Assembly: GCF_009617975.1 (NCBI RefSeq)
Contig: NZ_CP040089.1
Span: 270,001-302,000 of the forward strand
Direction: 5' to 3'
Length of the DNA: 32,000 nt
Origin: Candidatus Nanohalobium constans
Lineage (GTDB): Archaea > Nanohalarchaeota > Nanosalinia > Nanosalinales > Nanosalinaceae
Part shown: positions 2,829 through 32,000 of the stretch, one piece after another
Position numbering within the stretch: the first letter of the stretch is position 1
How the letters are laid out: the number at the start of each line of letters is the position of its first letter
Position numbers and translations under genes: made by a program
Notes under the pieces: model-generated
Seen by the model: the letters and a program-made list of their open reading frames with translations, nothing else
What the model was told of the DNA's origin: nothing
The model's database searches: none

Positions 2829-2863
2829 AGTTGATAAAAAAGACTGCTGGAATATTAACTGTT

Positions 2864-3454: not shown

Positions 3455-3461
3455 AGAATCA

Positions 3462-3596: not shown

Positions 3597-3632
3597 AAAA
3601 GCTAAAAAATTCTCGATAACTAATTGTATAAT

Positions 3633-4256: not shown

Positions 4257-4295
4257 ATCCATCAAGAGTAAAAATTTTCCTGACAAACCCGTAAC

Positions 4296-6146: not shown

Positions 6147-6189
6147 GCAAACTGTTTTTTATTTAAGCTAGAGACGAGAATACAGAAGA

Positions 6190-7517: not shown

Positions 7518-7651
7518 GTATGTTATTGTTGCCGTTAACCTCTAGTTTCTGACTGTGTTGCCTCAAGGGGTTTTTGGTGAGGAAGGTAAAGGAACGGTTT
7601 TTTCTCTTTAGTCGCTATTTTGATCGGAGCTGGATTACTTTTTCTACGATA

Positions 7652-8251: not shown

Positions 8252-8257
8252 AGTCGG

Positions 8258-8473
8258 TCACTCCTTCATGTTCTTTACTGCAAACAGCATCGTCAAGCCT
8301 CCTGCAATAAGCAGCAGCATTCCCTGGACATCTGCAGGAACCAGAGCTGGGACACTGAAACCAAGGTCTACCTTGGGAATCAACATTCCTTCGTTCGTAA
8401 TCAAGGTAAGTATCCCTGCGATTTCAAGTAGAGACGCGACCGGCAACAAATATTTACCATCTATGTGGCTCAT
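8258..8473 (-). CDS. small two-TM membrane protein
   Basis: 71 aa with two hydrophobic helices. It sits immediately upstream of 7652-8251, and an AT-rich promoter-like region lies upstream of it. Confidence 0.5.
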   Translation of the reverse strand: MSHIDGKYLLPVASLLEIAGILTLITNEGMLIPKVDLGFSVPALVPADVQGMLLLIAGGLTMLFAVKNMKE

Positions 8474-8574
8474 GATTTAGGCTTTGTATATTTAATATAA
8501 AAAATCAGTCAACTGCTCCAATCTAGAATTATTCCTGTTATTTATTTTATAAAACAAGGAACATCAACCAGGTA
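8474..8574. promoter_or_regulatory. AT-rich divergent intergenic region with TATA-like boxes
   Basis: Contains TATATTTAATATAAAAAA and TTATTTATTTTATAAAA, between divergently transcribed genes whose starts are at 8473 (minus) and 8575 (plus). Confidence 0.3.
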
Positions 8575-16218: not shown

Positions 16219-17004
16219 ATGTCTGATGATGAGGTTGAGCTTGGTGGTAAGCAGGGTGCCGGTGATGATTATGAGGTTGTTCCGGTTGGCCCTTTGAGGA
16301 AACTTGAGAGAAGAGTTGATGAGCTGCAGGAGCAGAATCAGCAAGGCGGTGGTTCCGGTGGTGCTGATGATGAACTGGTTCGTGATGTTTTGGATATCAT
16401 GAAGTCGAATCAGAAAATCGTCAATGACATGACTGAGTCAACTCACGAGCTCAAAAACTCGGTTGAAGACCTGACTCATAAGATGGATGAGGTCGTTGAT
16501 AATATGAATAATTTCATGGATCTCTTGACCGAGGCTTCTGAGATGGATATGGAAGGTGAGATGGTTGGTGATATGGAAGGTCGTATCGCTGAGGCTATTG
16601 GATCTAAGATGGATGATGTTGCTCAGGATATGAAGCAATCGAATCAGGAAGTAGTCGAGCATTTAAACGATATTAATGATAGTTTGAGGAAGAGTTATGC
16701 TTCTCAGAACAAGGATGGCTTGGTTTCCCGGTCTCGTGATCAGAATGTTGGAGGTCAACAGGTTCAGTCTAGTTCGCAGCCTCAGCCGCAATCTCAGTCT
16801 CAGAGACAATCTCGGTCACAGTCTCAGGGCATGGATGGCGGTCAGTCAAGTCCTCAGCAGTCAATGGGCGATCAGGGTCGTGATTCTATAGGTAAAAACC
16901 GTTCACGTCAGCAAGGCAATGATTTAGATCTTGGTTCCGATAATTCAGATCGAATGGATAGGCTGAGAGAAAGATTTAACAAGACAGGAAAAAATGAAGA
17001 GTAA
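16219..17004 (+). CDS. acidic coiled-coil protein with Gln/Ser-rich low-complexity tail; first gene of the pilus-like locus
   Basis: 261 aa with no signal or TM. The central region has a heptad-like pattern rich in D/E/M (VNDMTESTHELKNSVEDLTHKMDEVVDNMNNFMDLL). The tail reads SSQPQPQSQSQRQSRSQSQ. The 3' end overlaps the first pilin gene by 11 nt. Confidence 0.7.
   Translation: MSDDEVELGGKQGAGDDYEVVPVGPLRKLERRVDELQEQNQQGGGSGGADDELVRDVLDIMKSNQKIVNDMTESTHELKNSVEDLTHKMDEVVDNMNNFMDLLTEASEMDMEGEMVGDMEGRIAEAIGSKMDDVAQDMKQSNQEVVEHLNDINDSLRKSYASQNKDGLVSRSRDQNVGGQQVQSSSQPQPQSQSQRQSRSQSQGMDGGQSSPQQSMGDQGRDSIGKNRSRQQGNDLDLGSDNSDRMDRLRERFNKTGKNEE
16765..16827 (+). repeat. imperfect CAG/TCT-rich hexanucleotide-like low-complexity tract encoding (S/P/R)Q repeats
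   Basis: Sequence: cagtctagttcgcagcctcagccgcaatctcagtctcagagacaatctcggtcacagtctcag. Confidence 0.6.
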
Positions 17005-17485
17005 AGGCGTTTCACCTGTTGTGGCTACTGTATTACTTGTTGGTATAGCTATTGCTTCTGTTTCCTCTGCTGCCATAGTTCTTCAAGGAACTTTAACTGA
17101 TATCCAGGGTAATGTTGAGGACTGGATTGGGCAGGAGGATAGGGAAGAGTCTACGAAGATCAGTGTAGATTACGGCTATAATCAAAGTGATTATCTGCTT
17201 GTTGACCTGAGGAATACAGGCTCTTCATCCATAGAAATCGTAGAGGATGGCGGTACTTCGCTAAACATGTATCTTGAGGGGGTGCCGGAAGACTGGAGCT
17301 TTGTATCAGGAAGCCCATACGAGTCTCAGAGCACGGTGATACTCGATCCGTCCGCTACATTGACGCTTAACACTACTGAAAAATTCCCGGTTGAAGGAGA
17401 GAGTGTTGAAGTCGAGTTTGCAGGTCCTTATGAAACATCAACAACCTATATCTGCTTCAACGAAAACGGTGCCTGTGAGAGCTGA
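16994..17485 (+). CDS. archaeal type IV pilin (PF07790/DUF1628-type N-terminus)
   Basis: 163 aa. Class III signal MKSKG|VSPVVATVLLVGIAIASV. The C-terminus carries two Cys (YICFNENGACES). Confidence 0.85.
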   Translation: MKSKGVSPVVATVLLVGIAIASVSSAAIVLQGTLTDIQGNVEDWIGQEDREESTKISVDYGYNQSDYLLVDLRNTGSSSIEIVEDGGTSLNMYLEGVPEDWSFVSGSPYESQSTVILDPSATLTLNTTEKFPVEGESVEVEFAGPYETSTTYICFNENGACES

Positions 17486-17545
17486 AGCACTTAGCTAGAA
17501 CCTATTTAAATCAGGTTTATACAAATAATACGTAAGAGGTATATT

Positions 17546-18124
17546 ATGTTTAAACAGAGCAAGGGTATAACGCCCGTAATCGCGATCGTGCTACTACTAC
17601 TCGTCACCGTAGGCGCAGTAGGAGTAGTATACACACAGTTCCAAAACATAGCAGACCAGGGAGACACGCAGTTCAGCACAGACGCTAAAAACACCGAAGT
17701 CTCTCTAGTCTCAATCAGTGAGAACTCAGACAACAATGACTCCATGCAGTTGACATGGACAAACAAGCAGGACTCAGTAGAGATCAACCAGACAGAGATG
17801 CTTGAAATGACTTTCATCCCAGAAGATGGAGAGTCAGGTGTGCTTTTCCAGCAGGTAGAAACAGGAAGCTTCAACTCGCTTGATGTAGCAAGCAGTGATT
17901 TCCCATCTGGAGCATCCTCAACGCCTCAGATAGAATGTTTCAATGAAGAGGCTATTGCTGAAGAAGATCATCTGGTGACGACAGGAGAGACAGTTACCTG
18001 TGACACCAATGTCAAGTTCCCTGGTGCAACTGAGAGTATTTCAGTTGTTGTCAATGTCAAAGGTGGAGACAAGTCTTGGACTTACGAGTGTTCGCCTTCC
18101 ACATCTAGCAGTCAGACCTGTTAG
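17546..18124 (+). CDS. archaeal type IV pilin (PF07790-type N-terminus)
   Basis: 192 aa. MFKQSKG|ITPVIAIVLLLLVTVGAVGVVY. AAGAGGT lies before the ATG. Four Cys, with the last residue being Cys (SSSQTC). Confidence 0.85.
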   Translation: MFKQSKGITPVIAIVLLLLVTVGAVGVVYTQFQNIADQGDTQFSTDAKNTEVSLVSISENSDNNDSMQLTWTNKQDSVEINQTEMLEMTFIPEDGESGVLFQQVETGSFNSLDVASSDFPSGASSTPQIECFNEEAIAEEDHLVTTGETVTCDTNVKFPGATESISVVVNVKGGDKSWTYECSPSTSSSQTC

Positions 18125-18148
18125 ATAGGTAGGTTGCTCGAGCCCCCA

Positions 18149-18184
18149 TCTTTTCTCTTCTTTCTTTTTTCCCTCTTGTTTTAT
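18149..18184 (+). terminator. oligo-T rich putative archaeal terminator after the two PF07790-type pilin genes
   Basis: Sequence tcttttctcttctttcttttttccctcttgtttt immediately after the stop at 18122-18124. It is followed by the TATA-like TTTTATATTC (18179-18188), about 25 nt before ATG 18212. Confidence 0.35.
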
Positions 18185-18211
18185 ATTCTCAGATATTTGA
18201 ATTGGTTTTAC

Positions 18212-18868
18212 ATGAAGGGTCAAACACAGGCTGTAACTGCTGTTCTAATCACTGGCGTCATTGTAGGAGGAATTGCTTCGGCTTATGTATGGGGTGTTCC
18301 CCTGATTGAGAAGAGGCAAAGTCAGTCCGAGCTTCAATCAGTGGAGTCAAGCTCCGAGCAGCTCTTGGAAACGATTAGATCTGTCTCTAATGAAGGAAGT
18401 CAGAGCAGCAGTGAAGTTGATTTCTCTTTAAATAATGGACGGGTTGAGGTGAACTCGGAAGAAAACTATATTGATATCATAACTTTCTCAGACTCCTCAA
18501 ATTATCCTAAAGGGTCTTGGAGTCTTCTTGAAGGTAGCAGCCGACAGGGTCTTTCCTTCGGCGCAGGTAAATACGCGTTAAGAGGTGAGGATTCCTCAGG
18601 TGTTCTCGCAGTGAAGGCACGGAAAGGAGGTAACTCTCTTATCAGGTACAGGGTTGAGTTCAGAAACCTCAGGACTGATACTGTTTCTGGCTCCGAGTTA
18701 AGACTGGTGGATTTACAGGTTTCGGGAGCTGATGAGGCATCTGGCGATGTAACGGTTGAATTAACGAATAAAGGCGAAGAAGTGGACTCAGGTGACGACA
18801 GCTTCACCTTGTCAAGCGGCGATGAACTGGTAAGGAGAAGAACTGTAGTGGAGGTCGATCTGAGGTGA
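18212..18868 (+). CDS. class III signal (KGQ-type) pilin-like protein
   Basis: The track ORF 18134-18868 starts at TTG inside the T-tract. The in-frame ATG 18212 gives MKG|QTQAVTAVLITGVIVGGIASAYVW, a short prepilin-type leader. Confidence 0.7.
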   Translation: MKGQTQAVTAVLITGVIVGGIASAYVWGVPLIEKRQSQSELQSVESSSEQLLETIRSVSNEGSQSSSEVDFSLNNGRVEVNSEENYIDIITFSDSSNYPKGSWSLLEGSSRQGLSFGAGKYALRGEDSSGVLAVKARKGGNSLIRYRVEFRNLRTDTVSGSELRLVDLQVSGADEASGDVTVELTNKGEEVDSGDDSFTLSSGDELVRRRTVVEVDLR

Positions 18869-18874
18869 TTCACA

Positions 18875-19288
18875 ATTAAAGGACAGAACCTTGCTGTTGA
18901 AACCGTCTTTACATTTGGCCTTGGGCTTGTAGCAGCCATAGGAATAATAGCTCTGTTCAATAACTACAGGGCGGGCGCCCTAGACTCAGTTGAGCCTGAT
19001 CAAGCAGAAATAATTTCATCAGATCTAAAAACGGGTTTAAACACGGTTTCCCAGACAGGAACCTCGCCTAACAGCAGTTTTTACTATGATGAAAAGTTTC
19101 CTGAAAGATTGGCAGGAAATCAGTATGTTTTAAGACTGGAAGGCGATAGAATACTGGTTGAGTCGGGAGGAGAAACTTACTCTACGCCGCTGACAGGGTT
19201 TAAGGATTATGATTTGTCGGGAAGTATTCGAGGTGGAGAGGCAACTATTTTCAAGAGAGGAAACAATATTAAACTGAGGTCGTCCTGA
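18875..19288 (+). CDS. class III signal pilin-like protein with apparent ATT start codon (absent from ORF track)
   Basis: The frame is open from 18869 to TGA 19286-19288, with no ATG/GTG/TTG before the hydrophobic helix. ATT AAA GGA CAG at 18875 reads (M)KG|QNLAVETVFTFGLGLVAAIGIIALF. GAGGTGAT (18862-18869) lies 6 nt upstream. Confidence 0.55.
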   Translation: MKGQNLAVETVFTFGLGLVAAIGIIALFNNYRAGALDSVEPDQAEIISSDLKTGLNTVSQTGTSPNSSFYYDEKFPERLAGNQYVLRLEGDRILVESGGETYSTPLTGFKDYDLSGSIRGGEATIFKRGNNIKLRSS

Positions 19289-19290
19289 AA

Positions 19291-21003
19291 ATGCCTAATG
19301 CTAACTTGTTAAATATAATTGGAAATCTCAGGAAGGTTAAGCATCCTGAGGCATTTGAGAAGAAGGAAGAGGAGAGCGATGTTGATGAGGGTGAAGGAAT
19401 CGAACTCCCATCGCCTGGAGAGTTCAAGGAGGAGTATGTTGAAGAGACAACGGACGATGAAGATTTAACCGATGTCGATATCACTTATCCATTGGTGCCT
19501 GCTGACCCTGATGAAGGTGAGATGGTGTATGCCTGGGCACATATCCACTGGAATGAAAGAGAAGGAGAGCTCGTCTACGAAGTCGTCGAACCTGAAAGAA
19601 CACCGGAACTGGATCAAAAGATTGAACACATAACCGACATAATGGAGAGATCATTTGACATCGACTTCAACCAGTTAGAGGGCGGTGAAGCCGACGAATA
19701 CCTGACAGAGAAAATAGACATGATAGTAGACAAATACGATATATCACTTACAGATGAGCAGAGAGAAGTTGTCAGGTACTACACTAAAAGAGACTTTGCT
19801 GGACTAGGAAAACTTCAACCATTGATGAACGATACAGAGGTTGAAGATATCTCCTGCGACGGAGTAGACATTCCTGTATACGCATACCACAGAAACCCGC
19901 AGTACGGATCAGTTAAAACAAATATCGAATGGCACAGCCAAGACGAACTGGACAGCTTCGTTATGAAACTGGCACAGAGGTGTGGTAGAAGCATATCCGT
20001 CTCAAGCCCGCTTCTCGACGGTTCGTTACCCGACGGTTCTCGTGTACAGGCAACGCTCGCAACAGATATTGCTAGAAAAGGTTCAAACTTTACTATAAGA
20101 CGTTTCACAGAAGATCCATTGACTCCGATCCACATGATGGACTATGAGACGGAGAACGCTCAGATGCTGTCTTATCTTTGGACTTTGGTAGAACATGGAA
20201 AATCTACGCTTGTATGTGGAACAACAGGAGCAGGAAAGACCTCTCAGTTGAATGCTCTTTCGCTTTTTATCCGTCCTGAGAAGAAGATTGTCTCGATTGA
20301 GGATACACCGGAGCTGCGTCTTCCTCATGATCACTGGGTGCCGGAGGTTGCCCGTTCAGGTTTCGGAAGCAGTGCTGAGTCTGGTGGGGAAGTATCTATG
20401 GACAATCTATTGAAGGAGTCTCTGCGTCAGCGTCCAGAATACATTATTGTTGGTGAGGTTCGTGGTGAGGAAGCCTATATCCTGTTCCAGCAGATGGCTA
20501 CAGGTCACACAGGGCTCTCAACTATCCACGCTGACAGCCTTGAGATGCTTATGGATCGCCTCACAACAGATCCTATTAATCTTTCCGGAAGCCTTATTGA
20601 GACTCTGGACTGTATAATGCTTATTAAGAGGATTAGAAGGGATGGAAGTTATATCCGTCGTATCACCGGGCTTTATGAGGTTCTTGGTTACGATAAGAGG
20701 AGAGGTATTGATTCTAACAAGGTGTTTGGCTGGGATCCGCAGAATGATCAGTACAGGACTGAGAACAAGTCTGTCCTGCTTAAGGATATTGCTGATCAGT
20801 CTGGTATCGATTATTCGAAGATTAAAAGAGATCTTAGGAACAAGCAGCATGTTTTGAACTACATGCAGGAGGAGCAGATCAAGCATTACCGTGAGGTTGG
20901 AGATATCATCTCGAGATATTACAGTGATCCTAAATCAGTGATGGAGGATGTTGGGCAAACATTTAATTCTCAAGATGACGAATTAGAAGTCAAGGATGCT
21001 TGA
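19291..21003 (+). CDS. FlaI/PilB/GspE-family type IV pilus (secretion) ATPase
   Basis: 570 aa. Walker A GTTGAGKTS, Walker B region PEYIIVGEVRGEEA, His box GHTGLSTIHA. It has an acidic N-terminal extension. Confidence 0.92.
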   Translation: MPNANLLNIIGNLRKVKHPEAFEKKEEESDVDEGEGIELPSPGEFKEEYVEETTDDEDLTDVDITYPLVPADPDEGEMVYAWAHIHWNEREGELVYEVVEPERTPELDQKIEHITDIMERSFDIDFNQLEGGEADEYLTEKIDMIVDKYDISLTDEQREVVRYYTKRDFAGLGKLQPLMNDTEVEDISCDGVDIPVYAYHRNPQYGSVKTNIEWHSQDELDSFVMKLAQRCGRSISVSSPLLDGSLPDGSRVQATLATDIARKGSNFTIRRFTEDPLTPIHMMDYETENAQMLSYLWTLVEHGKSTLVCGTTGAGKTSQLNALSLFIRPEKKIVSIEDTPELRLPHDHWVPEVARSGFGSSAESGGEVSMDNLLKESLRQRPEYIIVGEVRGEEAYILFQQMATGHTGLSTIHADSLEMLMDRLTTDPINLSGSLIETLDCIMLIKRIRRDGSYIRRITGLYEVLGYDKRRGIDSNKVFGWDPQNDQYRTENKSVLLKDIADQSGIDYSKIKRDLRNKQHVLNYMQEEQIKHYREVGDIISRYYSDPKSVMEDVGQTFNSQDDELEVKDA

Positions 21004-21871
21004 AGATTACTCTGATTTCTGCTACGAAGCAGTAGGTAGCATAGCCTTAAAGTATATAGACAACTTTGAAGGCTTAAGAAGACAGTTATCCAAGGCTAAC
21101 ATAGAGATAACCTTGCCAGAGTATGTAAGCATGATGTTTTTCACATCAGCCGCGGTTGCGGTAGGCTCCCTCCTGTTCTTTGGATTAATTTTTACCTTGT
21201 CCATGGGACTACCCGGACTGGTGTTTGCGTTTGTTTTAACAATGATACTGGGCTCTTTTTCTGCTGCAGCGTTTTATCTCTATCCGGGTATAATGATGAA
21301 GAGCAGAGCATCTAAAATCAGGGATACCTTACCTTTCGCCACAATGTATCTTTCAACCTTGGCAGGTACAGGAACTTCACTTCCTGAGATCTTCAAGAAC
21401 CTGGCAGAAGTAGATGAATACGGTGAAGTATCCAAAGAGGCGGAGAAAATTTCAAGAGACATAGAAACATTTGGAATGGATGCAGGTGAAGCAATGGAGA
21501 GAGCAGCAAACAGAACACCGAGCGAGGATTTCAAAGAGCTTGTATGGGGAATAAACCATGTTATAACTACTGGAGGATCTTTGAAGCAGTTTTTACAACA
21601 GAGATCTGAGCGCTTGATGGAAGACTACCGTAGAAGAGTTGAGGAATTCTCGGAGCAGCTTTCATTGCTTGTTGAAATGTATATAACTGTTATAATCGTA
21701 GGTTCGATTATTTTCACTTCCATGACGGCTGTAATAAGCTCTTTCTCCTCCAGTATATCGCCCAGTCTCTTGGTTAATATACAGGTTGTAGCAGTATTCT
21801 TTGGAATCCCTATGATTTCGGCAATGTTCATAATACTGGTTGATGGCATGTCACCAGGAGGTATAAGATAA
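20996..21871 (+). CDS. type IV pilus platform protein, FlaJ/PilC/TadB-like (corresponds to the N-terminal T2SSF half)
   Basis: 291 aa. TM pair, then the cytoplasmic domain LPFATMYLSTLAGTGTSLPEIFKNLAEV...GMDAGEAMERAANRTPS...TTGGSLKQFL, then TMs. Overlaps the ATPase gene by 8 nt. Confidence 0.8.
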   Translation: MLEDYSDFCYEAVGSIALKYIDNFEGLRRQLSKANIEITLPEYVSMMFFTSAAVAVGSLLFFGLIFTLSMGLPGLVFAFVLTMILGSFSAAAFYLYPGIMMKSRASKIRDTLPFATMYLSTLAGTGTSLPEIFKNLAEVDEYGEVSKEAEKISRDIETFGMDAGEAMERAANRTPSEDFKELVWGINHVITTGGSLKQFLQQRSERLMEDYRRRVEEFSEQLSLLVEMYITVIIVGSIIFTSMTAVISSFSSSISPSLLVNIQVVAVFFGIPMISAMFIILVDGMSPGGIR

Positions 21872-22902
21872 TGGACTTCTTCACAGACGACGAGTACGAA
21901 CCAGGCTACTCGATAGAGCAGAAGGTAATCTACGGATCCCTAGGCATAGGCGGAGGAATAACGATCACAGGGATGATGATATACTTCCTAGGCTCTGTAA
22001 GGGTTGGAGGAGCCCTACTAATACTTGGAATGATAGCTGGTCTCCTTCCGTACGGCGTCCTAAGCTTCCTGAAAAACCGGGCGGTCAGAGAAATGGAGAA
22101 CCAGTTCCCATCATTCCTGAACGACCTAGCAGAATCAAAGAGGGGAGGTATGACGATACTGAAAGCCTTCGAATCAGCTAAGGACACCGACTACGGAAGA
22201 CTGAACTCCGAGGTCGAAAAAGTACATACAGACCTCACATGGGGAATACCTTTCCCAGAAGTAATGGAAAGATTCTCAAAAAGAATGAAAGCAAGCCCTG
22301 TAATCCAGGAATCTCTCTCCATCATTATCCAGAGCTTTCAGAGCGGAGGAAACATCACAGACACAATCGAGTCCGTAGCAGAAAATGCTTCCGACCTAAA
22401 AGAAGTACTACAGAGCAAGAGATCCCAGCTTAAGCAACAGCTCTTCATAATGTATATTATCTACTTCCTGTTTATAGGGATTACAATAGGAATCTATGTC
22501 ATGCTTTCACAGCTTCTCGGACTTGGAAGTCAGGAAGCTGGGGCACTTCAGGGAATAGGAGAAGTCTTGGGTGGTGACGGAGGGTCGGCAGGACCGACAA
22601 ACTTCTGCGGAAAAGATATTCTAGCCGCCAGACCTTTCTGCTCAACAGCCAAGATATTCGGATTCATACCCACTAATATCACAGATCTTGGTAGCAGCTA
22701 CGCCACCAAGTACGCTTACGGAAAGATGGCATACTACAAATCGCTGCTTTTCACCATGCTCATGGTTCAAGGAATGTGTACCGCAGCAGTATCAGGACAG
22801 ATAAGCGAGGGAAGCCCTTCAGCAGGAGTAAAACACGCAATCATAATGATGCCAATAGCGTTCATAGTATTCATGCTGGTCCTAAGACCTATGGGGGTGT
22901 AG
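21871..22902 (+). CDS. type IV pilus platform protein, FlaJ/PilC/TadC-like (corresponds to the C-terminal T2SSF half)
   Basis: 343 aa. FPSFLNDLAESKRGGMTILKAFESA...WGIPFPEVMERFSKRM...QSGGNITDTIESVA, then TMs. TAATG overlap with the previous gene, in a different frame. Confidence 0.8.
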   Translation: MDFFTDDEYEPGYSIEQKVIYGSLGIGGGITITGMMIYFLGSVRVGGALLILGMIAGLLPYGVLSFLKNRAVREMENQFPSFLNDLAESKRGGMTILKAFESAKDTDYGRLNSEVEKVHTDLTWGIPFPEVMERFSKRMKASPVIQESLSIIIQSFQSGGNITDTIESVAENASDLKEVLQSKRSQLKQQLFIMYIIYFLFIGITIGIYVMLSQLLGLGSQEAGALQGIGEVLGGDGGSAGPTNFCGKDILAARPFCSTAKIFGFIPTNITDLGSSYATKYAYGKMAYYKSLLFTMLMVQGMCTAAVSGQISEGSPSAGVKHAIIMMPIAFIVFMLVLRPMGV

Positions 22903-22905
22903 AAA

Positions 22906-23757
22906 ATGCCTTCAACTAAGGGACAGTCCACAATCGAATTCCTCGGAGGAATGTTCATAGTAATACTGGCATTGGTAGCCGCCCTGTCAGCCAACTCCGG
23001 TAAAATACCTGAGTTTGAGTCAAGCGTCGAACAATCCGCCAGAAACATGGAGATATACTCGCTTACAGAAAAAATACTGAGCAAACCAGGATACCATACT
23101 AATGGAACGGGGGGTACAGAGTGGGAAGACAATATATCCCATACCTCGGAGTTTGGACTGGCTAAAGACTACCTCGTTCTAGAAAAAGAGAAAATCGATG
23201 CACTGCAAACCACCGGCGATTCAAGCTTCAACTACAGCCAGTTCAAAAAAGTTACAGGAGCTGACAACCAGTACCACTTCACATTCATCTGGCAGCCAAT
23301 AGTTGAAACATCAAACTCATTCACCAGAACAGAACCTGAAAACGGTATAGACGAGCCCGGCACCACAGGAAATCCGGACCCACTTTACTCCCAAGCTGAA
23401 AACAGGGTGCACTACGGAAACTTCACAATACAAGCACAGACCTACTGGTTCCTGGTAACAGCCCATGACGGAGTTTACAACACTACAAGAATCTCCACAG
23501 ACAAGGACTTTGACTCTGAGTTGACACTAGGAACAGGAGACACATACAGTTTAGCAGGTACAGAATTTGAACTTCAGCGGTTCCAAAACCGGGAAAGAAA
23601 GCCTGGAGCCGCAGTAGTACTCTCAAATGAGCTTAAATCCTTCGGACCATCATCAGAAAACGTAGATCAAAGTGTAACCAAACTCAACCGCTACGCTGTC
23701 CTTGAAGAGCCTTTAACAGATTCTGAGCCAATAAGAATTGAGGTATTATCATGGTAA
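22906..23757 (+). CDS. class III signal peptide (PF04021-like) pilin-like protein
   Basis: 283 aa. MPSTKG|QSTIEFLGGMFIVILALVAALSA, with Glu at +5 after the predicted cleavage site. Confidence 0.8.
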   Translation: MPSTKGQSTIEFLGGMFIVILALVAALSANSGKIPEFESSVEQSARNMEIYSLTEKILSKPGYHTNGTGGTEWEDNISHTSEFGLAKDYLVLEKEKIDALQTTGDSSFNYSQFKKVTGADNQYHFTFIWQPIVETSNSFTRTEPENGIDEPGTTGNPDPLYSQAENRVHYGNFTIQAQTYWFLVTAHDGVYNTTRISTDKDFDSELTLGTGDTYSLAGTEFELQRFQNRERKPGAAVVLSNELKSFGPSSENVDQSVTKLNRYAVLEEPLTDSEPIRIEVLSW

Positions 23758-25529
23758 AGAAAAAAGGACTAGGATATTCGATCGAGGCAATTGTAGCGAT
23801 TGCAACAGTTTTCATATTCATCTTTGGCGCTGTCAACGTACCTCAAGGACAGGACTGGAACAGCTTCAGAAGCCAGGTATCTGCCAACGACTTAACATAC
23901 ACTCTTCAAGAAGCAGGATACATAAACCATGCTTTAAGAAACGGCGAGACAGGATCTATCCAGACAGCTTTCTCAACTATAACAGAGAGAGACGTAGAGG
24001 TATCAGGATTGGTCTCCAACCTTCCAATAAACGATAACCGCGTAGCTTTCCACGTAGTTAACTCAGACAGGTACAATCAAAACCTGGATGAAGTTGAATC
24101 AAGCGATAAATGTGAAGGGGATTTAGAAGAGATAAAATCCAGGTCAGATCAACCTGTTCTAAGATCTGAAGGAGGATTAGAGAACAACCGTCTCTACATA
24201 GGTGATCTAGATCCTCAGATAAGCGGAGGTAACTCTGAACAGGACTACGACTCGGTATGGGTCGACAACGGTACAAAATGCCAGTTCTCTAACAGCGAGG
24301 GACCTTTCAACATTGAAGAGATTTTCAAATGGGATAACAACTACTATGATATTAAATCAATTGAATCTGACAAGTTAAGGATCTACAATGCTACACAGCC
24401 AGTCAGATTTAGGGACATGTTCGATCGTGATGTTAACAGTGTTAAGACGTTTACTTCTGTTGATACTGTTAACTTTACCCGTCTCGACAGAAGAAGCTAT
24501 GATACTGCAGTCATAAGAAGAGAGGAAGCAGTTCAAGAGATCGACACTGATACCGATAAGAGGGAAAAGTTTGAAAACTTCCTGAAACAGGGATCAGCTC
24601 TAATTTTAGCTAATCTGTCAAGCAGCAGTTTTGAAAACGGTGACTTCCTAGATGATACCGGGTTTGAATACGTTGATGTCTCATATCAGGGTTCCTATGA
24701 TGGAGACTCGGCAGAATCAGGTTTTGATTCAAGTACGTCCGCTCAAGAAGCACAAACCAGTTTCCTGGGCTTGGAGGGAGAAGAAGACAATCTGGAGATG
24801 GCTCCTTCAACCAAGGTCATATCTGACACTGAGAGAACACTGGAATCTGGAAAGGCACTGGTTAAATCCTCTAAGCTCTACGACTTCAGCGAGTGGAACA
24901 GGGAAAAACAGAACATGAACTCTGTAACTCCAGAGGAGGTAGAAGGAAAGCCTGACAGCAAATGCCTAGACAATAAACCAGAGGCATTGACAGAGGCAGT
25001 CTTCGACTTCCCGGATTTTGATTACAACGTGTTGAACGCGGAACTAGGTACATCCGATAGTTACTGCAACAACAATAACGTCAGAGCGGTAAAGGTTGAC
25101 CTAGATCGTGATGGAGACTACTTAGATGAGAATGAAGGTCCGTTCCTGAACGGTGATCAAATCACTATAGATAACAGAGTCTACAACCTGAACATTACAG
25201 TATACGACCCTGATCCGAATATAGGCTGCGACCAAGAAGGAGGCTGCGTAAGTTTCGAATACCGAGGAGATGAAAAAGTCGAAGTCATTCCTAGGAGAAG
25301 ATCTCTCAAAAACCTGCCCTCCGGAGGAAAAATAGCCTTAACCTCATACAGACAGAATTATGACGCTGAAAGCTTGAAGGCGATTGTATCTACTATTTAC
25401 TGGCTTAGAGGCAGCCAAACAAGTTTCACAGGGCAGAAAACTCCGGGCGAAACATCTACGAAAACCTACTCAAGCATCAAAGAGGAAACATATCTTCCAT
25501 ACGAAATAAACTTCAGGTGGGGTCAGTGA
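23751..25529 (+). CDS. large (592 aa) pilin-like protein with class III-type N-terminus and acidic extracellular domain
   Basis: MVKKKG|LGYSIEAIVAIATVFIFIFGAV. Overlaps the previous gene by 7 nt. The large D/E/N-rich domain has several Cys. Confidence 0.7.
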   Translation: MVKKKGLGYSIEAIVAIATVFIFIFGAVNVPQGQDWNSFRSQVSANDLTYTLQEAGYINHALRNGETGSIQTAFSTITERDVEVSGLVSNLPINDNRVAFHVVNSDRYNQNLDEVESSDKCEGDLEEIKSRSDQPVLRSEGGLENNRLYIGDLDPQISGGNSEQDYDSVWVDNGTKCQFSNSEGPFNIEEIFKWDNNYYDIKSIESDKLRIYNATQPVRFRDMFDRDVNSVKTFTSVDTVNFTRLDRRSYDTAVIRREEAVQEIDTDTDKREKFENFLKQGSALILANLSSSSFENGDFLDDTGFEYVDVSYQGSYDGDSAESGFDSSTSAQEAQTSFLGLEGEEDNLEMAPSTKVISDTERTLESGKALVKSSKLYDFSEWNREKQNMNSVTPEEVEGKPDSKCLDNKPEALTEAVFDFPDFDYNVLNAELGTSDSYCNNNNVRAVKVDLDRDGDYLDENEGPFLNGDQITIDNRVYNLNITVYDPDPNIGCDQEGGCVSFEYRGDEKVEVIPRRRSLKNLPSGGKIALTSYRQNYDAESLKAIVSTIYWLRGSQTSFTGQKTPGETSTKTYSSIKEETYLPYEINFRWGQ

Positions 25530-25846
25530 ATAAAGGACAGTTCATGATCATATCCGTAATAATAGCAAGCCTCATCACCATAAGCCTAGCAGCAACCATA
25601 TCACAGATCCAGCTACAGAGACACAATGTAGAAGAAACCTCGCTTCATACAAACAAAATAGAGACGGAAATAGAGAAAATAACAGCCGATGGCGTAATAA
25701 CAACTAAAGAGGAAAGAAACTTCAGAAAACTACTGGGATACATCGACAACTACGAGACAGAACCGGTATTCAACCACTCAGGTCCATGCATCAAAGTAAA
25801 AATGCGGTCCACAGACCGCAGAATAGAAACAGAATGCATCAACTAG
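25526..25846 (+). CDS. small pilin-like protein
   Basis: The track ORF starts at GTG 25517. GTG 25526 (GTGA overlap with the upstream stop) gives (M)NKG|QFMIISVIIASLITISLAA. It ends in a CTAG shared with the convergent rfcL stop. Confidence 0.6.
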   Translation: MNKGQFMIISVIIASLITISLAATISQIQLQRHNVEETSLHTNKIETEIEKITADGVITTKEERNFRKLLGYIDNYETEPVFNHSGPCIKVKMRSTDRRIETECIN

Positions 25847-28721: not shown

Positions 28722-28760
28722 TCTGAAAACTTAAATTCTAAGGCAGTCCACACTGTAACC

Positions 28761-29540
28761 GTGGGGTCTTCAAAAGGACAGTCAGCAGTAGAGTACTTAA
28801 CAACCTACGGATGGATGGTTCTAGTCCTAACTGTAGCGGGATCGGCAGTTTTTACTACGGTCTCGCCAGGCTGCCAGGTAAGTGTTCAAGCAGGACCCGC
28901 CAGCTCTTTAACTGCCTCAGAATCAGGTCTTGAAGAAGGCAACACTCTTTCAGTTATCTTACGTAATTCTGAGTCATCTCTGATTGAAATCCGCTCGGTA
29001 AAACTCGAAGGACGCCAAGAATCAGCAAAAAACACGCAAATACCGGTCGGAGAAGAGAAAAAATACGAAGTAACCTCGGTTAAACCTTCTGGAGAATGCC
29101 AAGAATACGACATGACCTTAGCATACAGTACACAGAACTTACCAAACCTTGAGCAAAAATTCACGGTCAGAGGCAAATTCACTCTTCCTCAGATAATAGT
29201 AGAAAAGCTGTTTGTTGCTGGAGACACTATAGAAGAGATTGAGACACGCGAAACTGTTCTGCCGACAGGAAACAATACAATGTGCTTCGGAGACGACTGC
29301 GGGACCACTGAAGGAGGAGAATTAACAGGCTCAGAACAATACCTGAATATCTCCGGCGACTCAATGCAAGGACCACTCAACACAGACGCATTAAATGCTA
29401 ACTGCTACGGCGATCTATGCAGCTCAACTCAGACCAGTGACCTAGGATATGTAAGCAGCCAAAACAATACACTAAATGGAACACTTAATGTCACGGAAGT
29501 TAAACCAATACAAAATCTTTGTGTAGGAGGAACATGCTAA
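28761..29540 (+). CDS. class III signal peptide (PF04021-like) secreted protein with C-terminal CxGxxC loops
   Basis: 259 aa, GTG start. (M)GSSKG|QSAVEYLTTYGWMVLVLTVAGSAVF. The C-terminal third contains MCFGDDC, NCYGDLC and the terminal NLCVGGTC, plus EQYLNISGDSMQGPLN. Confidence 0.75.
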   Translation: MGSSKGQSAVEYLTTYGWMVLVLTVAGSAVFTTVSPGCQVSVQAGPASSLTASESGLEEGNTLSVILRNSESSLIEIRSVKLEGRQESAKNTQIPVGEEKKYEVTSVKPSGECQEYDMTLAYSTQNLPNLEQKFTVRGKFTLPQIIVEKLFVAGDTIEEIETRETVLPTGNNTMCFGDDCGTTEGGELTGSEQYLNISGDSMQGPLNTDALNANCYGDLCSSTQTSDLGYVSSQNNTLNGTLNVTEVKPIQNLCVGGTC

Positions 29541-30397
29541 TGAAAAAAGCAATAATGATTTTAGCACTGATAATATGCGTATACACTGCTACTGCAGATA
29601 TGGAATTCCGATCCAGCACGCCTATAGATGTCTACAGCCAATTCAACATGCATAACAATCAAATAACAAACCTTCAAAACCCTGGGGCAGACTCACACGC
29701 GCTAAACCTTGGATACGCTAACGAAAAATACCTTCAAAGAAACGGAGACAGCATAGACGGCAACCTCGACATGCAAAACAACAGAATACTAAACTTGCCA
29801 ACTCCAGCATCCGGGACAGATCCAGCAACCAAAAACTATGTCGATACTCAGGTAACATCAACACCACAATCACTATCTCAAGTGCTCGAAGAAGAAAACA
29901 CAGCCAATCAGAGCATCGATATGGATCAAAACCGTATAAGAAACCTGGCACAGCCAAAAACCAGCAACGACTCAGTAACACTTGGATACGCCAACAACGC
30001 GTACCTTCAAAGAAATGGAGACAGCATAGACGGAAACCTCGACATGAAAGGAAACTCCATCAACAACATCGGAGAAATAACCGGAAACAACAACATAAAC
30101 AACAGCATACAATTCAAATCAAACAGCATAAACTTCAATCAGGATGGAGCAGGAACAATACTTAAACTCCAAGAAACAGGGCAAATCAACGCCACAAACT
30201 CCAGGATTACAAATCTGAAAGACCCAAGCAATCCACAGGACGCAGCAACACAAAGCTATGTACAAAGCTACTCCAAAACCAACGACCAATACATAGGAAA
30301 CAATAAGACACACCAAGTAGGCGGCAACATCAACATGACAGACCAAAACATCACCACAAACACCCAAAACCGGATATGCACAGGCAACCAATGCTAA
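29534..30397 (+). CDS. Sec-signal secreted repeat protein with tail-fibre/adhesin-like motifs
   Basis: The track ORF starts at 29519. ATG 29534 (or 29540, a TAATG overlap) follows GTAGGAGG. MLMKKAIMILALIICVYTATA is a signal peptide. Repeats of N-x-I-x-N-L-x-x-P-(4-5)-D-x-x-x-x-x-Y and YLQRNGDSIDGNLDM. It ends in RICTGNQC. Confidence 0.75.
   Translation: MLMKKAIMILALIICVYTATADMEFRSSTPIDVYSQFNMHNNQITNLQNPGADSHALNLGYANEKYLQRNGDSIDGNLDMQNNRILNLPTPASGTDPATKNYVDTQVTSTPQSLSQVLEEENTANQSIDMDQNRIRNLAQPKTSNDSVTLGYANNAYLQRNGDSIDGNLDMKGNSINNIGEITGNNNINNSIQFKSNSINFNQDGAGTILKLQETGQINATNSRITNLKDPSNPQDAATQSYVQSYSKTNDQYIGNNKTHQVGGNINMTDQNITTNTQNRICTGNQC
29708..30052 (+). repeat. two ~73-bp direct repeat copies (about 29708-29780 and 29980-30052) inside the repeat-protein gene
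   Basis: cttggatacgctaacgaaaaataccttcaaagaaacggagacagcatagacggcaacctcgacatg versus cttggatacgccaacaacgcgtaccttcaaagaaatggagacagcatagacggaaacctcgacatg. Both encode LGYAN..YLQRNGDSIDGNLDM. Confidence 0.8.
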
Positions 30398-30409
30398 AAA
30401 ACTGATACT

Positions 30410-32000
30410 ATGACAGACGAAATCCAAGAAATAGTAGACGACCAAGAAAAAGCAGACAAACTACAGCAAATAATAGAGAAAAAAGTCCAAAAAGAAGTAC
30501 AAAAAACAGTAAAAAACCTGAAACAATCAGAAGAGTCCAAAGAAAAAACAGAAAACAGTTCAGAAGAAGTTTCAAGACGCTCATTCTTAAAGAAACTGGG
30601 AGCAGGAGCAATCGGCCTAGGAGCGGCCTCACTACTACCCTCCGCATCAGCATACAAAGTCAAAAGCGGTCACGGCTTCGATGTAACATCAGACGGAACA
30701 GAATACTTCGATGTCGACCCTAGCGGAAAAGTCAAAGTCAAAAACGCAGCCCTACAAATTGACACAGGACAGTCAATTGAAGACAACAACGGAACCAAAG
30801 CCATAAACCTCCTAGGAAACGGCAGCGTTGAGATTCCGATCGGAAACCTCCGCCTCAACAAAGGACAGTTCATTGAAGACGGAAACGGCACAGAAAGAAT
30901 AGCAATTGACCCAAGCGCAGGATTTGGCACTCATATATACAACGACGATGGTAAATTTGCATTTAGAGCAGTAGGAAACTTTGGACAAGCAATCTACGCA
31001 AGAAGCAACGAACCAGTAAGAATCCAAGACAACGAAGGAGACTTTACAGCCGTCAAATATGACACCGACACAAGTGCTGGCGTGCTGAAAACACCGAACG
31101 CCGGAATAGTAGCACAAGACAACGGAACACCATCATCAGGAGCAGGTCTAGAATTAACATACACACAAAATAACGATGGACGTGTAACAGCATACGATAG
31201 AAATAACAACAACTACATTCCACTCTACCTACGAGGCTCAAGAATTGACTTCTCTGATACCCCTGCCAACCTCCGCCTCGCCACGGGACAGAGTATCGAG
31301 GATGGTTCTGGTACTGCACGGTTGGATCTCCACAATTATGGCACTGATATTAACAGCGAAGAGGGTTCAACAGGGATTCGCTTCGCTGAGGGAGAAGATA
31401 CATTCTTTAGAGTGTTCGGATCTAAACTTGAGGTTGATGATAATAACGGTGGCTTCATTGCCCTCCAATACACCACGTCATCCAGTGCACCTGGAACGTT
31501 GGAATTGAAGAATGCCAATCTCGACGCTGGGGGGAACGATATTACGAATGCTGGTTCGGTCAGTGCAGAGGAAATAGGTGCTGAACGGCATTTAGCTGAA
31601 GGGTTTGATGGGGCTGATCCTGATTCGCGTCTCGATGCTGCTCTATCAAATGCATCTGATGGTGATGTAATCTACCTTGAAAATGCTGAATACAGTGAGG
31701 TTAGGTCAATATCAGTGAGGGTCTCTCTCATTGGAACGGGGGGAATGGGGGGGGCTGGTACTACCATTAGTGCCGATTGGACGCTTTCTGGTATAGGGTC
31801 AATATTAGAGGCAGTCTCTCTATCAGGAGGGACTATAACGATCAATGGAGTTGCATCAAGAGTCGAAAACATTTATGGGTCAACATCTCAATCAGTAACT
31901 GTGGATGCCGACTATGTTGGTATTTACAATTGTTATAATGTTGATGTAACATTCCAAAGTAATACAAATGGCGGGATGGCAGATGGTCTCCGTAATTCAA
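30410..32000 (+). CDS. Tat-signal secreted repeat protein with pectate-lyase/beta-helix-like C-terminal region; 5' partial, open to the window end
   Basis: Not in ORF track because it has no stop. My translation: MTDEIQEIVDDQEKADKLQQIIEKKVQKEVQKTVKNLKQSEESKEKTENSSEEVSRRSFLKKLGAGAIGLGAASLLPSASA|YKVK.... Three GQ(S/F)IED(x)2GT repeats. Later comes FDGADPDSRLDAALSNASDGDVIYLENAEY. Confidence 0.75.
   Translation, partial: MTDEIQEIVDDQEKADKLQQIIEKKVQKEVQKTVKNLKQSEESKEKTENSSEEVSRRSFLKKLGAGAIGLGAASLLPSASAYKVKSGHGFDVTSDGTEYFDVDPSGKVKVKNAALQIDTGQSIEDNNGTKAINLLGNGSVEIPIGNLRLNKGQFIEDGNGTERIAIDPSAGFGTHIYNDDGKFAFRAVGNFGQAIYARSNEPVRIQDNEGDFTAVKYDTDTSAGVLKTPNAGIVAQDNGTPSSGAGLELTYTQNNDGRVTAYDRNNNNYIPLYLRGSRIDFSDTPANLRLATGQSIEDGSGTARLDLHNYGTDINSEEGSTGIRFAEGEDTFFRVFGSKLEVDDNNGGFIALQYTTSSSAPGTLELKNANLDAGGNDITNAGSVSAEEIGAERHLAEGFDGADPDSRLDAALSNASDGDVIYLENAEYSEVRSISVRVSLIGTGGMGGAGTTISADWTLSGIGSILEAVSLSGGTITINGVASRVENIYGSTSQSVTVDADYVGIYNCYNVDVTFQSNTNGGMADGLRNS

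What the first reader, a model, noticed from the sequence alone, without database searches (positions are those of the whole stretch)
28761..32000. Cluster of three consecutive secreted proteins using three different export signals and sharing fibre/adhesin-like motifs
Gene 1 has a class III (prepilin-type) signal, KG|QSAVEY. Gene 2 has a Sec-type signal, MKKAIMILALIICVYTATA. Gene 3 has a twin-arginine signal, SRRSFLKK...ASA. Genes 1 and 2 share Y-L-x-x-(S/N)-G-D-S-(M/I)-x-G-x-L and terminal CxGxxC motifs. Genes 2 and 3 are built from short beta-strand-like repeats. Gene 3 then enters a region resembling the N-terminus of pectate-lyase-fold or tailspike-like beta-helices (FDGADPDSRLDAALSNASDGDVIYLENAEY). 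So a pilin-anchored protein carrying a fibre-tip-like module sits beside two fibre/beta-helix proteins. This looks like a dedicated surface adhesion or host-recognition module rather than metabolism. No capsid, terminase or integrase is nearby.
Basis: partly seen in the sequence, partly recalled or inferred. Interest (0 to 1): 0.75.

Follow-up and report, generated by a model that had tools for sequence, protein, structure and literature searches.

The report
Virus-like surface fibre genes in nanohaloarchaeon
Three neighbouring genes of the tiny symbiotic archaeon Candidatus Nanohalobium constans encode exported proteins assembled from pieces also found in virus tail fibres and in proteins of viruses of its host's relatives, so they are a good candidate for the still unknown device with which this symbiont grips its host cell.

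Summary
The window is chromosomal DNA of Candidatus Nanohalobium constans. The three co-directional genes are real: g1 28761-29540, g2 29540-30397, and g3 30410 to 47 nt past the window end (545 aa).

The three export signals hold up:
- g1 has a class III prepilin-type signal.
- g2 has a Sec signal.
- g3 has a canonical SRRSFLKK Tat signal, above the TIGR01409 cut-off, behind a 55-aa helical extension.

g1-g2 adjacency recurs in 7 of 8 nanohaloarchaeal lineages, and a g3-type gene follows in most. The genomic neighbourhoods differ, and tatA/tatC or tatC alone flank the cassette in two lineages.

The parts are virus-like:
- g2 carries two or three ~90-aa units with the T7-gp17-type tail-fibre motif.
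- The g3 shaft repeat occurs in a protein at the tail-fibre position of haloarchaeal myovirus-like contigs.
- The g3 C-terminal head is 40-42% identical to Tat-signal proteins of Halorubrum virus V_ICIS4 and of a colinear element on a Halomicrobium plasmid. Halomicrobium is the host genus of N. constans.

The beta-helix reading of g3 is not supported, and the repeats are long rather than short strands. No capsid, terminase or integrase gene lies nearby.

Best reading: an undescribed surface fibre/adhesin cassette built from viral receptor-binding modules, probably for host attachment. That function is inferred, not shown.

The parts
28725..28760 (+). Short intergenic region upstream of g1 with an A/T-rich TTAAAT element about 25-30 nt before the GTG start; a possible archaeal TATA box
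   Evidence: Read directly from the sequence. Not tested.
28761..29540 (+). g1 (QGA80260.1, 259 aa). Pilin-like protein with a class III signal (KG|QSAVEYL) and hydrophobic helix 17-34. Residues 40-141 form a beta-sandwich. The C-terminal region 170-259 carries a fibre-type Y-L-N-x-S-G-D-x-M-x-G-x-L motif and three C-x-G-x-x-C loops (175, 215, 254).
   Evidence: AF2 gives pLDDT 62-82 for the sandwich only. Foldseek lists archaeal type IV pilins 8fk7, 8q30 and 6w8u among the top hits, E 5e-3 to 2e-2. hhalign to the g2 family gives E 3.5e-4. No Pfam, NCBIfam or PHROG hit.
29540..30397 (+). g2 (QGA80261.1, 285 aa). Sec signal 1-19. Two ~90-aa repeats (about 34-115 and 126-180) plus a degenerate third (about 205-285). 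The repeats contain the phage tail-fibre motif N-x-I-x-N-L-x-x-P-x-x-x-x-D-A-x-T-K-x-Y-V-D. The protein ends in C-T-G-N-Q-C.
   Evidence: Pfam Phage_T7_tail, 5e-12, profile positions 109-150 only. PHROG tail-fibre families, 7e-15 to 1e-12, at two stretches. The family profile hits only phage tailspikes and fibres in the PDB, E 2.5e-5 to 2e-3. tblastn finds podophage tail-fibre genes. Repeats have z 18.
30410..30574 (+). g3 N-terminal extension (aa 1-55), K/E/Q-rich and predicted to be a single long helix
   Evidence: AF2 predicts helix 12-44 with pLDDT 72-79. The same kind of extension occurs in Tat-type relatives and in the viral or plasmid homologues.
30575..30649 (+). g3 twin-arginine signal (aa 56-80): SRRSFLKKLGAGAIGLGAASLLPSASA|Y
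   Evidence: TIGR01409 scores 21.6 bits against a cut-off of 16.7. NCBI names the protein accordingly. The A-x-A-like site is conserved in paralogues.
30650..31498 (+). g3 shaft (aa ~81-363): a partial unit plus two ~140-aa repeats starting N-L-R-L-x-x-G-Q-x-I-E-D-G-x-G-T
   Evidence: Repeat z 16. AF2 predicts all-beta structure with pLDDT 70-85 for 250-370. The repeat is shared with signal-less proteins of viral contigs. P0013 lies in a 138-kb contig with ThyX, RNR and HNH genes. The 525-aa protein of L017 lies directly after the tape-measure and baseplate J/I genes. BFVD Foldseek top hits are caudoviral tail fibres, E 6e-6 to 1e-3, with low TM-scores.
31499..32000 (+). g3 head domain (aa 364-545; the last 15 aa lie beyond the window)
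   Evidence: 42% identity, end to end, with the C-terminus of WPH59263.1 of Halorubrum virus V_ICIS4. 40% identity with WP_225334244.1, a Tat-signal protein on a Halomicrobium urmianum plasmid. 44% identity with P0030. 333 representative clusters at E<=1e-3. The fold is unknown.

Best explanation
g1-g2-g3 form a conserved, lineage-specific cell-surface fibre cassette of Nanohaloarchaeota built from virus receptor-binding-type modules.

Proposed mechanism (the signals, homologies and gene order are shown; each step below is inferred from them):
1. g1 is cut by the prepilin peptidase after KG. Its hydrophobic N-terminal helix keeps it in the membrane or in a type IV pilus-like filament. This exposes a beta-sandwich and a Cys-looped fibre-type C-terminus.
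2. g2 leaves through Sec, loses its 19-aa signal and forms an extended fibre of T7-gp17-type units. It has no anchor of its own. It probably docks on g1 through the C-terminal module that the two proteins share.
3. g3 folds, and probably trimerises, in the cytoplasm as viral fibres do. The N-terminal helix may help. It is then exported folded by Tat.
4. g3 displays a shaft of halovirus tail-fibre repeats tipped by a head domain. The same head sits on Tat-signal proteins of virus-like elements of Halorubrum and Halomicrobium.
5. The head, and the LamG or beta-helix proteins that replace or follow it in relatives, would bind the envelope of the haloarchaeal host. This would mediate attachment and host specificity.
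For: - Signals: see the observation check.
- Operon-like packing: a 1-nt overlap and a 12-nt gap between the genes.
- Conservation of gene order across lineages and neighbourhoods:
  - window: g1-g2-g3;
  - L005: g1-g2-g3-395 aa, next to SRP54;
  - L020: tatC-g1-g2-g3;
  - L001-3: g1-g2-short g3-224 aa-3 LamG-3 Beta_helix;
  - L004/L008: g1-g2-one gene-Trx-short g3;
  - L011: 2 LamG-g1-mini g3-156 aa-3 LamG-tatA-tatC;
  - L010/L019 and L021: g1-g2.
- Viral-module homology: g2; g3 shaft; g3 head.
- g3-family member P0017 ends in a Peptidase_S74 intramolecular chaperone domain, which is typical of trimeric phage fibres.
- Tat-type relatives keep the N-terminal region and shaft but carry different C-termini. 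This is the pattern expected of exchangeable binding heads.
- The cassette diverges fast relative to its flanks.
- N. constans lacks the SPEARE proteins proposed as attachment factors in other nanohaloarchaea, and its host is a Halomicrobium (PMC7443923).
Against: - There are no data on expression, localisation or binding.
- The structure models are poor. g1 has mean pLDDT 48 and g3 62, and the g3 head is below 50 over much of its length. Fibre or trimer geometry is therefore not shown.
- The g1-g2 similarity is weak.
- The virion role of the V_ICIS4 and plasmid head-domain proteins is unknown; both are annotated only as hypothetical or Tat-signal proteins. 'Receptor-binding' is an inference from position and architecture.
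- The family is small in the databases: 5-11 close homologues for g1 and g2, and only 2 loci in the JGI metagenome scan.
- The g1 pilus link is circumstantial. The cassette is not next to pilus genes in other lineages.
Confidence: 0.55

Rival explanations
1. Accessory or tip proteins of the type IV pilus or archaellum-like filament encoded 3 kb upstream. They would serve general adhesion (to chitin, other polysaccharides, surfaces, or other symbiont cells) or filament function, not specific host recognition.
For: - g1 has the same KG|QSxxE(F/Y)L signal as the 283-aa protein that follows the FlaJ/PilC genes.
- The order pilus locus-RFC-RFC-Fap7-g1-g2 is kept in the closest relative.
- Foldseek places archaeal pilins among the best matches of the g1 sandwich.
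- Filaments were seen on N. constans cells and their role is open (PMC7443923).
Against: - In L005, L011, L020 and L021 the cassette lies in unrelated neighbourhoods without pilus genes.
- The specific homology of the g3 head to proteins of virus-like elements of haloarchaea is not explained by general adhesion.
Confidence: 0.2
2. Envelope-degrading or envelope-remodelling proteins. The g3 head, and the beta-helix or LamG partners in relatives, would act like tailspike depolymerases that open the host S-layer or glycan coat rather than simply binding it.
For: - Related loci carry three NosD/Beta_helix proteins, a fold common in depolymerases.
- The best PDB hits of g2 are N-terminal parts of capsule depolymerase tailspikes.
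- Microscopy showed the symbiont penetrating the host S-layer (PMC7443923).
Against: - g1-g3 have no catalytic-domain hit.
- The g3 head shows no similarity to the Beta_helix proteins.
- The matched part of the tailspikes is the anchor or neck, not the enzyme.
Confidence: 0.1
3. A decaying fragment of an integrated virus (tail-fibre or spike genes) with no cellular role.
For: All three proteins share modules with viral proteins.
Against: - The ORFs are intact, and the order and signals are conserved in at least 7 lineages at 30-60% identity.
- The flanks are housekeeping genes, and the window has no capsid, terminase or integrase gene.
- A class III signal and a Sec signal are not features of tail fibres.
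Confidence: 0.05
4. A decoy or exclusion function. Displaying a viral head domain would block receptors, or compete with viruses of the host or of the symbiont.
For: The head domain is shared with Tat-signal proteins of virus-like elements.
Against: - No hit to defence-system models.
- There is no precedent that I know of.
- The combination with a pilin-like anchor and a second fibre protein fits adhesion better.
Confidence: 0.05

Closest known systems
Archaeal type IV pilins and adhesive pili (e.g. Sulfolobus Aap, Pyrobaculum pili, Methanococcus Epd pilins with Q at +1)
   Same: g1 has a class III signal with K-G|Q, an N-terminal hydrophobic helix and an Ig-like beta-sandwish-type globular domain, here a beta-sandwich.
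   Different: g1 is larger. It carries a C-terminal fibre-type repeat with three C-x-G-x-x-C loops. It has no hit to pilin models. Assembly into a filament is untested.
Phage T7 gp17-type tail-fibre and tailspike N-terminal (anchor/neck) region, Pfam PF03906
   Same: g2 carries the ~35-40-aa motif ...N-L-x-x-P-x-x-x-x-D-A-x-T-K-x-Y-V-D two or three times.
   Different: Only profile positions 109-150 of 157 are matched. The gene is cell-encoded, has a Sec signal and ends in a Cys loop. It has no recognisable distal receptor-binding domain.
Tail fibres of haloarchaeal myovirus-like viruses and proviruses (IMG/VR contigs L017/L018; P0011, P0013, P0033)
   Same: They share the ~140-aa N-L-R-L-A-T-G-Q-x-I-E-D-G-S-G-T shaft repeat at 36-45% identity. 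The viral protein sits directly after the baseplate J/I genes.
   Different: The viral proteins have no signal peptide and have a virion-attachment N-terminus (phrog_33574). g3 instead has a helical extension and a Tat signal.
Tat-signal proteins WPH59263.1 (Halorubrum virus V_ICIS4) and WP_225334244.1 (Halomicrobium urmianum plasmid unnamed3)
   Same: The layout is the same: an N-terminal extension (helical in g3 by the AF2 model, not modelled in the other two), then an RR/KR signal, then the same C-terminal head at 40-42% identity through to the last residue.
   Different: They are 244-264 aa and lack the shaft repeats. They lie in membrane-protein-rich virus-like gene blocks. The 567-aa membrane protein of V_ICIS4 is 35% identical to a protein of the lemon-shaped virus LSV-48N (PMC12714723).
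SPEARE proteins and LamG/ConA-like lectins proposed as nanohaloarchaeal attachment factors
   Same: The proposed role is the same. LamG proteins are physically clustered with g1 and g3 homologues in L001 and L011.
   Different: g1-g3 have no LamG or SPEARE domains. N. constans is reported to lack SPEARE. Sequence comparison with SPEARE proteins was not done.

Membership tests
Archaeal class III (prepilin-type) signal proteins / type IV pilins | Short positively charged N-terminus, cleavage site [KR][GAS]| and a following ~20-aa hydrophobic helix | tested here: met
   MGSSKG|QSAVEYLTTYGWMVLVLTVAGSAVF. The pattern is conserved in 11 homologues, with A at -1 in two lineages.
Archaeal class III (prepilin-type) signal proteins / type IV pilins | Match to curated pilin or archaellin N-terminal models (TIGR02537, Pfam pilin families) | tested here: not met
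   g1 has no Pfam or NCBIfam hit. Neighbouring proteins at 16994 and 17546 do hit TIGR02537.
Archaeal class III (prepilin-type) signal proteins / type IV pilins | Pilin-like globular beta-sandwich domain | tested here: inconclusive
   AF2 models the sandwich 40-141 at pLDDT 62-82. Foldseek finds archaeal pilins 8fk7, 8q30 and 6w8u at E 5e-3 to 2e-2, among many generic Ig-like folds.
Archaeal class III (prepilin-type) signal proteins / type IV pilins | Processing by PibD/EppA and assembly into a filament | not testable with these tools
   Needs N-terminal mass spectrometry and microscopy.
Phage_T7_tail (PF03906), tail-fibre N-terminal domain | Score above the Pfam gathering threshold | tested here: met
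   g2 scores 46.2 bits against a cut-off of 25.2.
Phage_T7_tail (PF03906), tail-fibre N-terminal domain | Coverage of the whole 157-position domain that binds the virion tail | tested here: not met
   Only profile positions 109-150 are matched. PHROG and PDB matches are likewise 35-50-aa stretches.
Twin-arginine (Tat) substrates | (S/T)-R-R-x-F-L-K motif, a weakly hydrophobic h-region and an A-x-A site | tested here: met
   SRRSFLKK, an h-region score of 1.5 and ASA|Y. TIGR01409 scores 21.6 against 16.7.
Twin-arginine (Tat) substrates | Tat translocase present in the lineage | tested here: inconclusive
   tatA/tatC lie beside the cassette in two other nanohaloarchaea, L011 and L020. The rest of the N. 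constans genome could not be read.
Right-handed beta-helix / pectate-lyase-fold tailspikes | Match to Beta_helix, NosD or Pectate_lyase models, or a beta-helix structural model | tested here: not met
   g3 has no Pfam hit at E<=0.1. hhalign against Beta_helix proteins of L001 gives probability 0.1%. The PDB profile search is null. The AF2 head has pLDDT below 50 over much of its length.
Trimeric viral tail fibres | Shaft repeats homologous to those of proteins at the tail-fibre locus of tailed viruses | tested here: met
   The g3 repeat is 36-45% identical to P0013, P0033 and the 525-aa protein of L017, which follows the baseplate J/I genes.
Trimeric viral tail fibres | Homotrimeric, extended structure | not tested
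   Only monomer AF2 was available. Indirect support comes from the Peptidase_S74 chaperone domain in family member P0017.
Integrated provirus | Capsid, terminase, portal or integrase genes, or att sites, nearby | tested here: not met
   The window upstream is housekeeping plus a pilus locus. The downstream flanks in relatives are cellular. The N. constans sequence beyond 32000 was not available.

The most novel reading that the evidence does not exclude
Nanohaloarchaeota have captured receptor-binding modules from two kinds of viruses that infect their haloarchaeal hosts. One is tail-fibre shaft repeats from tailed viruses. The other is a Tat-exported head from lemon-shaped-virus-like elements found in Halorubrum and Halomicrobium. 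They display these modules through three export routes as a modular host-capture organelle. Swapping heads, and hitch-hiking LamG or beta-helix partners, would set the symbiont's host range, in the way tail-fibre swapping does for viruses.
Probability: 0.3. Interest if true: 0.85.

Novelty: new variant of a known kind. Interest (0 to 1): 0.62.

Why it matters
How DPANN symbionts recognise and hold their hosts is an open question. The papers searched here name only large SPEARE proteins, LamG lectins, DGR-diversified lectins and filaments as candidates, and N. constans lacks SPEARE.

N. constans is one of the few cultivated nanohaloarchaea with a defined host, so these three genes give concrete, testable candidates. 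If the head domain shared with Halomicrobium and Halorubrum virus-like elements binds the same envelope receptor, a cellular symbiont and viruses would be converging on, or exchanging, the same host-recognition hardware. It would also tie Tat export of pre-folded fibres to that function.

The cassette further defines three uncharacterised protein families, and a head domain with more than 300 sequence clusters of unknown fold.

Tried and rejected
- Fetching the N. constans contig to read beyond 32000 failed. The exact-protein look-ups are not on record, and the first genome-contig scan found nothing.
- The JGI metagenome scan with the g2 profile gave only 2 loci.
- IMG/VR scans for the head domain found nothing.
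- Structure route: the AF2 monomer models were poor. Foldseek of g3 against the PDB gave nothing meaningful. The BFVD hits to tail fibres have TM-scores of only 0.1-0.2 and count as weak support only.
- The beta-helix hypothesis for g3 was rejected.
- PHROG scans of the V_ICIS4 block gave no functional names. A literature search for 'ICIS4' returned only unrelated papers.
- The supplementary proteome tables of PMC7443923 are not held.
- No tRNA or Rfam hits in the window. The promoter and terminator scan was uninformative, and its sigma-70 model is not suited to archaea.
- No PADLOC defence hit.
- A lipobox in g2 was considered and rejected: the Cys is not preceded by G/A/S and is not conserved.

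Full report
ORIGIN AND CONTEXT

The window is chromosomal DNA of Candidatus Nanohalobium constans, a cultivated nanohaloarchaeal ectosymbiont of Halomicrobium. g1, g2 and g3 are 100% identical to QGA80260.1, QGA80261.1 and QGA80262.1 from a 973,463-bp contig.

Upstream genes are cellular:
- RNase J, a photolyase-related protein, GluRS and a thermosome subunit.
- A type IV pilus/archaellum-like locus at 16219-25846. It has one FlaI/PilB ATPase, two FlaJ/PilC proteins and six proteins with class III signals.
- RFC large and small subunits on the minus strand.
- A Fap7-like kinase.

No capsid, terminase or integrase gene is present.

THE OBSERVATION

Three co-directional genes are tightly packed:
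- g1, 28761-29540.
- g2, 29540-30397. Its ATG overlaps the g1 stop by one base, and a GGAGG lies upstream.
- g3, from 30410 after a 12-nt gap. It runs 47 nt past the window end and encodes 545 aa.

The three signal types are real at the sequence level.
- g1 begins MGSSKG|QSAVEYL followed by a hydrophobic helix. This is conserved in 11 homologues. It matches the signal of the 283-aa protein downstream of the FlaJ genes, KG|QSTIEFL.
- g2 begins MKKAIMILALIICVYTATA|DMEF. The hydrophobic core is strong, and the mature N-terminus is conserved in homologues.
- g3 has a perfect SRRSFLKK motif, a weakly hydrophobic h-region and ASA|Y. It passes TIGR01409.
- No alternative start codon exists between the ATG at 30410 and the RR motif. 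The 55-aa K/E-rich extension, modelled as one long helix, is therefore part of the protein.

The g1/g2 shared motifs exist.
- Their core is invariant in both families.
- A profile-profile comparison aligns g1 189-247 with one g2 repeat, E 3.5e-4 and probability 37%.
- The single-sequence similarity alone is not above chance.

- The repeats are long. g2 has ~90-aa units (z 18), and g3 has ~140-aa units (z 16).
- The beta-helix resemblance of the g3 C-terminus could not be substantiated.

CONSERVATION

The families are small and, as far as names and composition show, restricted to Nanohaloarchaeota. Gene order is kept in different genomic neighbourhoods:

| Locus | Gene order |
|---|---|
| Window | Fap7, g1, g2, g3 |
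| L005 | g1, g2, g3, a 395-aa signal-less protein; beside SRP54 |
| L020 | tatC, g1, g2, g3 (contig ends in g3) |
| L001-3 | g1, g2, short g3, a 224-aa protein, three LamG proteins, three Beta_helix/NosD proteins |
| L004/L008 | g1, g2, one membrane protein, thioredoxin on the opposite strand, a 199-aa g3; same flanks as the window |
| L011 | two LamG, g1, a 104-aa mini-g3, a 156-aa protein, three LamG, tatA, tatC |
| L010/L019 | g1, g2 (contig end) |
| L021 | g1, a long g2 with an M26_N/GLUG C-terminus |

- The refutation condition 'not conserved as neighbours anywhere else' therefore fails.
- The recurrent adjacency of Tat translocase genes supports a genuine Tat substrate.
- Against the closest related contig, the RFC subunits are 89-97% identical. 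g1 is 54%, g2 is 52%, and g3 is 38% with a different architecture.

WHAT THE PARTS ARE

g1
- It has no family hit.
- Its model is confident only for a beta-sandwich at 40-141.
- The best structural neighbours of that sandwich include archaeal type IV pilins, but at modest E-values and among generic Ig-like folds.
- The C-terminal 90 aa carry the fibre-type motif and three C-x-G-x-x-C loops.

g2
- It matches Phage_T7_tail above threshold, but only positions 109-150 of the profile.
- It matches several tail-fibre PHROGs at two stretches.
- It matches podophage tail-fibre genes.
- As a family profile it matches only phage tailspikes, tail fibres and a phage hyaluronidase in the PDB.

g3 is a chimera of three parts.

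(i) The helical extension plus Tat signal recurs in at least ten nanohaloarchaeal relatives with differing C-termini.

(ii) The shaft repeat is shared with signal-less proteins of viral contigs.
- P0013 lies in a 138-kb contig with ThyX, RNR, Ro60, LAGLIDADG and HNH genes.
- In IMG/VR contigs L017/L018, a 525-aa protein with the repeat follows the tape-measure, baseplate-wedge (phrog_6) and baseplate (phrog_1160) genes and precedes an integrase. That is the canonical tail-fibre position.
- One Tat-type relative ends in a Peptidase_S74 intramolecular-chaperone domain.

(iii) The head (364-545) has three clear relatives.
- It is 42% identical, to the last residue, with the C-terminus of a 264-aa protein of Halorubrum virus V_ICIS4.
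- It is 40% identical with a 244-aa 'twin-arginine translocation signal domain-containing protein' on a Halomicrobium urmianum plasmid.
- Both relatives have an N-terminal extension followed by an RR/KR signal.
- Both lie at the end of colinear gene blocks rich in membrane proteins.
- The 567-aa membrane protein of V_ICIS4 is related to a protein of the lemon-shaped Haloferax virus LSV-48N (PMC12714723).

An exhaustive search found the head in 333 representative clusters. Among the 148 listed hits other than g3 and P0030:
- Median length is ~240 aa.
- The sequences are mostly arginine-rich, that is, haloarchaeon-like.
- About a quarter carry an RR signal at a median position of 37.
- The rest have no signal.

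MECHANISM

The best-supported reading is a surface fibre/adhesin cassette whose binding parts are of the viral receptor-binding kind.
- Shown: the signals, the gene order, the homologies and the fast divergence.
- Inferred: that g1 is the membrane or pilus anchor.
- Inferred: that g2 docks on g1 through the shared C-terminal module.
- Inferred: that g3 is exported as a pre-folded, probably trimeric fibre by Tat. This would suit a module that evolved to fold in the cytoplasm.
- Inferred: that the head binds the haloarchaeal envelope.
- Inferred: that the signal-less LamG, beta-helix and 'KLPVY' proteins next to short g3 versions in relatives might be co-exported with them or attach to them.

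Rivals considered are general pilus accessories, envelope-degrading proteins, a dead provirus fragment and a decoy. They are weighed in the Rival explanations section of this report.

COMPARISON WITH WHAT IS KNOWN, AND NOVELTY

The papers on N. constans and on Nanohaloarchaeota that I could read discuss archaella or pili, LamG/PKD lectins, SPEARE proteins (absent from N. constans) and a DGR. None discusses this cassette.

The individual ingredients are known: class III signals, Tat signals and tail-fibre motifs. I did not find the following described:
- their combination in one conserved operon;
- a Tat-exported chimera of a tailed-virus shaft with a head shared with virus-like elements of the host's genus.

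I file it as a new variant of a known kind (cell-surface adhesin/fibre), not as a member of any named family.

LIMITS
- No experimental data were available.
- The structure models are weak.
- The downstream sequence is missing.
- The role of the viral head-domain proteins in virions is unknown.

Noticed in passing
window 16219-25846: Type IV pilus/archaellum-like locus with one FlaI/PilB ATPase, two FlaJ/PilC proteins and six proteins with class III signals. The 283-aa protein at 22906-23757 has the same KG|QSxxE(F/Y)L signal type as g1. It is published as an archaellum operon (PMC7443923).
   Followed up: partly
L001 10036-10350; L004 3380-3694; L008 8429-8791: A thioredoxin gene lies next to the cassette in two related lineages (L001; L004/L008), while g1 and g2 carry conserved C-x-G-x-x-C loops. 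This may be a link to disulfide handling or a coincidence.
   Followed up: no
L011 9476-10387; L020 6266-6949: tatA/tatC, or tatC alone, lie directly beside the g1/g3 cassette in two other nanohaloarchaeal lineages.
   Followed up: partly
L001 2467-8697; L011 2356-4312 and 6008-9435: Runs of signal-less LamG_3 proteins, and three NosD/Beta_helix proteins, follow or surround g1 and short g3 versions. They may be exchangeable distal binding proteins, exported by Tat hitch-hiking or otherwise.
   Followed up: partly
L023 (NZ_CP084093.1, 1-18478): The V_ICIS4-like block on the Halomicrobium urmianum plasmid is present more than once. The identical integrase WP_225334272.1 and proteins WP_225334238-40 occur twice within 18 kb, and the g3 head gave 4 matching places in the record.
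   Followed up: no
L007 (OR762182.1) 1974-8531: The late-looking block of Halorubrum virus V_ICIS4 is almost entirely membrane proteins. They include a 567-aa protein with an N-terminal signal and two C-terminal TM helices that is 35% identical to a protein of lemon-shaped virus LSV-48N. No PHROG function was found.
   Followed up: partly
P0017 (g3-family protein, 542 aa): A Tat-type relative of g3 ends in a Peptidase_S74 intramolecular-chaperone domain, as in trimeric phage tail fibres and endosialidases.
   Followed up: no
P0012, P0033, P0005, L011 5208-5522: The C-terminal motif G-D/Q-M/I-W-Y-D/R-x-D-x-D ends several g3-type and g2-type proteins and a viral tail-fibre-position protein. In L005 and L011 it is followed by a signal-less 'KLPVY...VLKVQTPSG' protein, and the L005 copy hits phrog_18723. 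This may be a docking motif and partner pair.
   Followed up: no
L010 1617-4383: Four tandem nucleotidyltransferase/HEPN (MNT-HEPN-like) gene pairs lie upstream of a 719-aa LamG protein in a Nanohalobium sp. MAG.
   Followed up: no
window 29000-31000: Strong A-over-T skew on the coding strand (0.36-0.51) gives several long spurious antisense ORFs over g2 and g3.
   Followed up: yes
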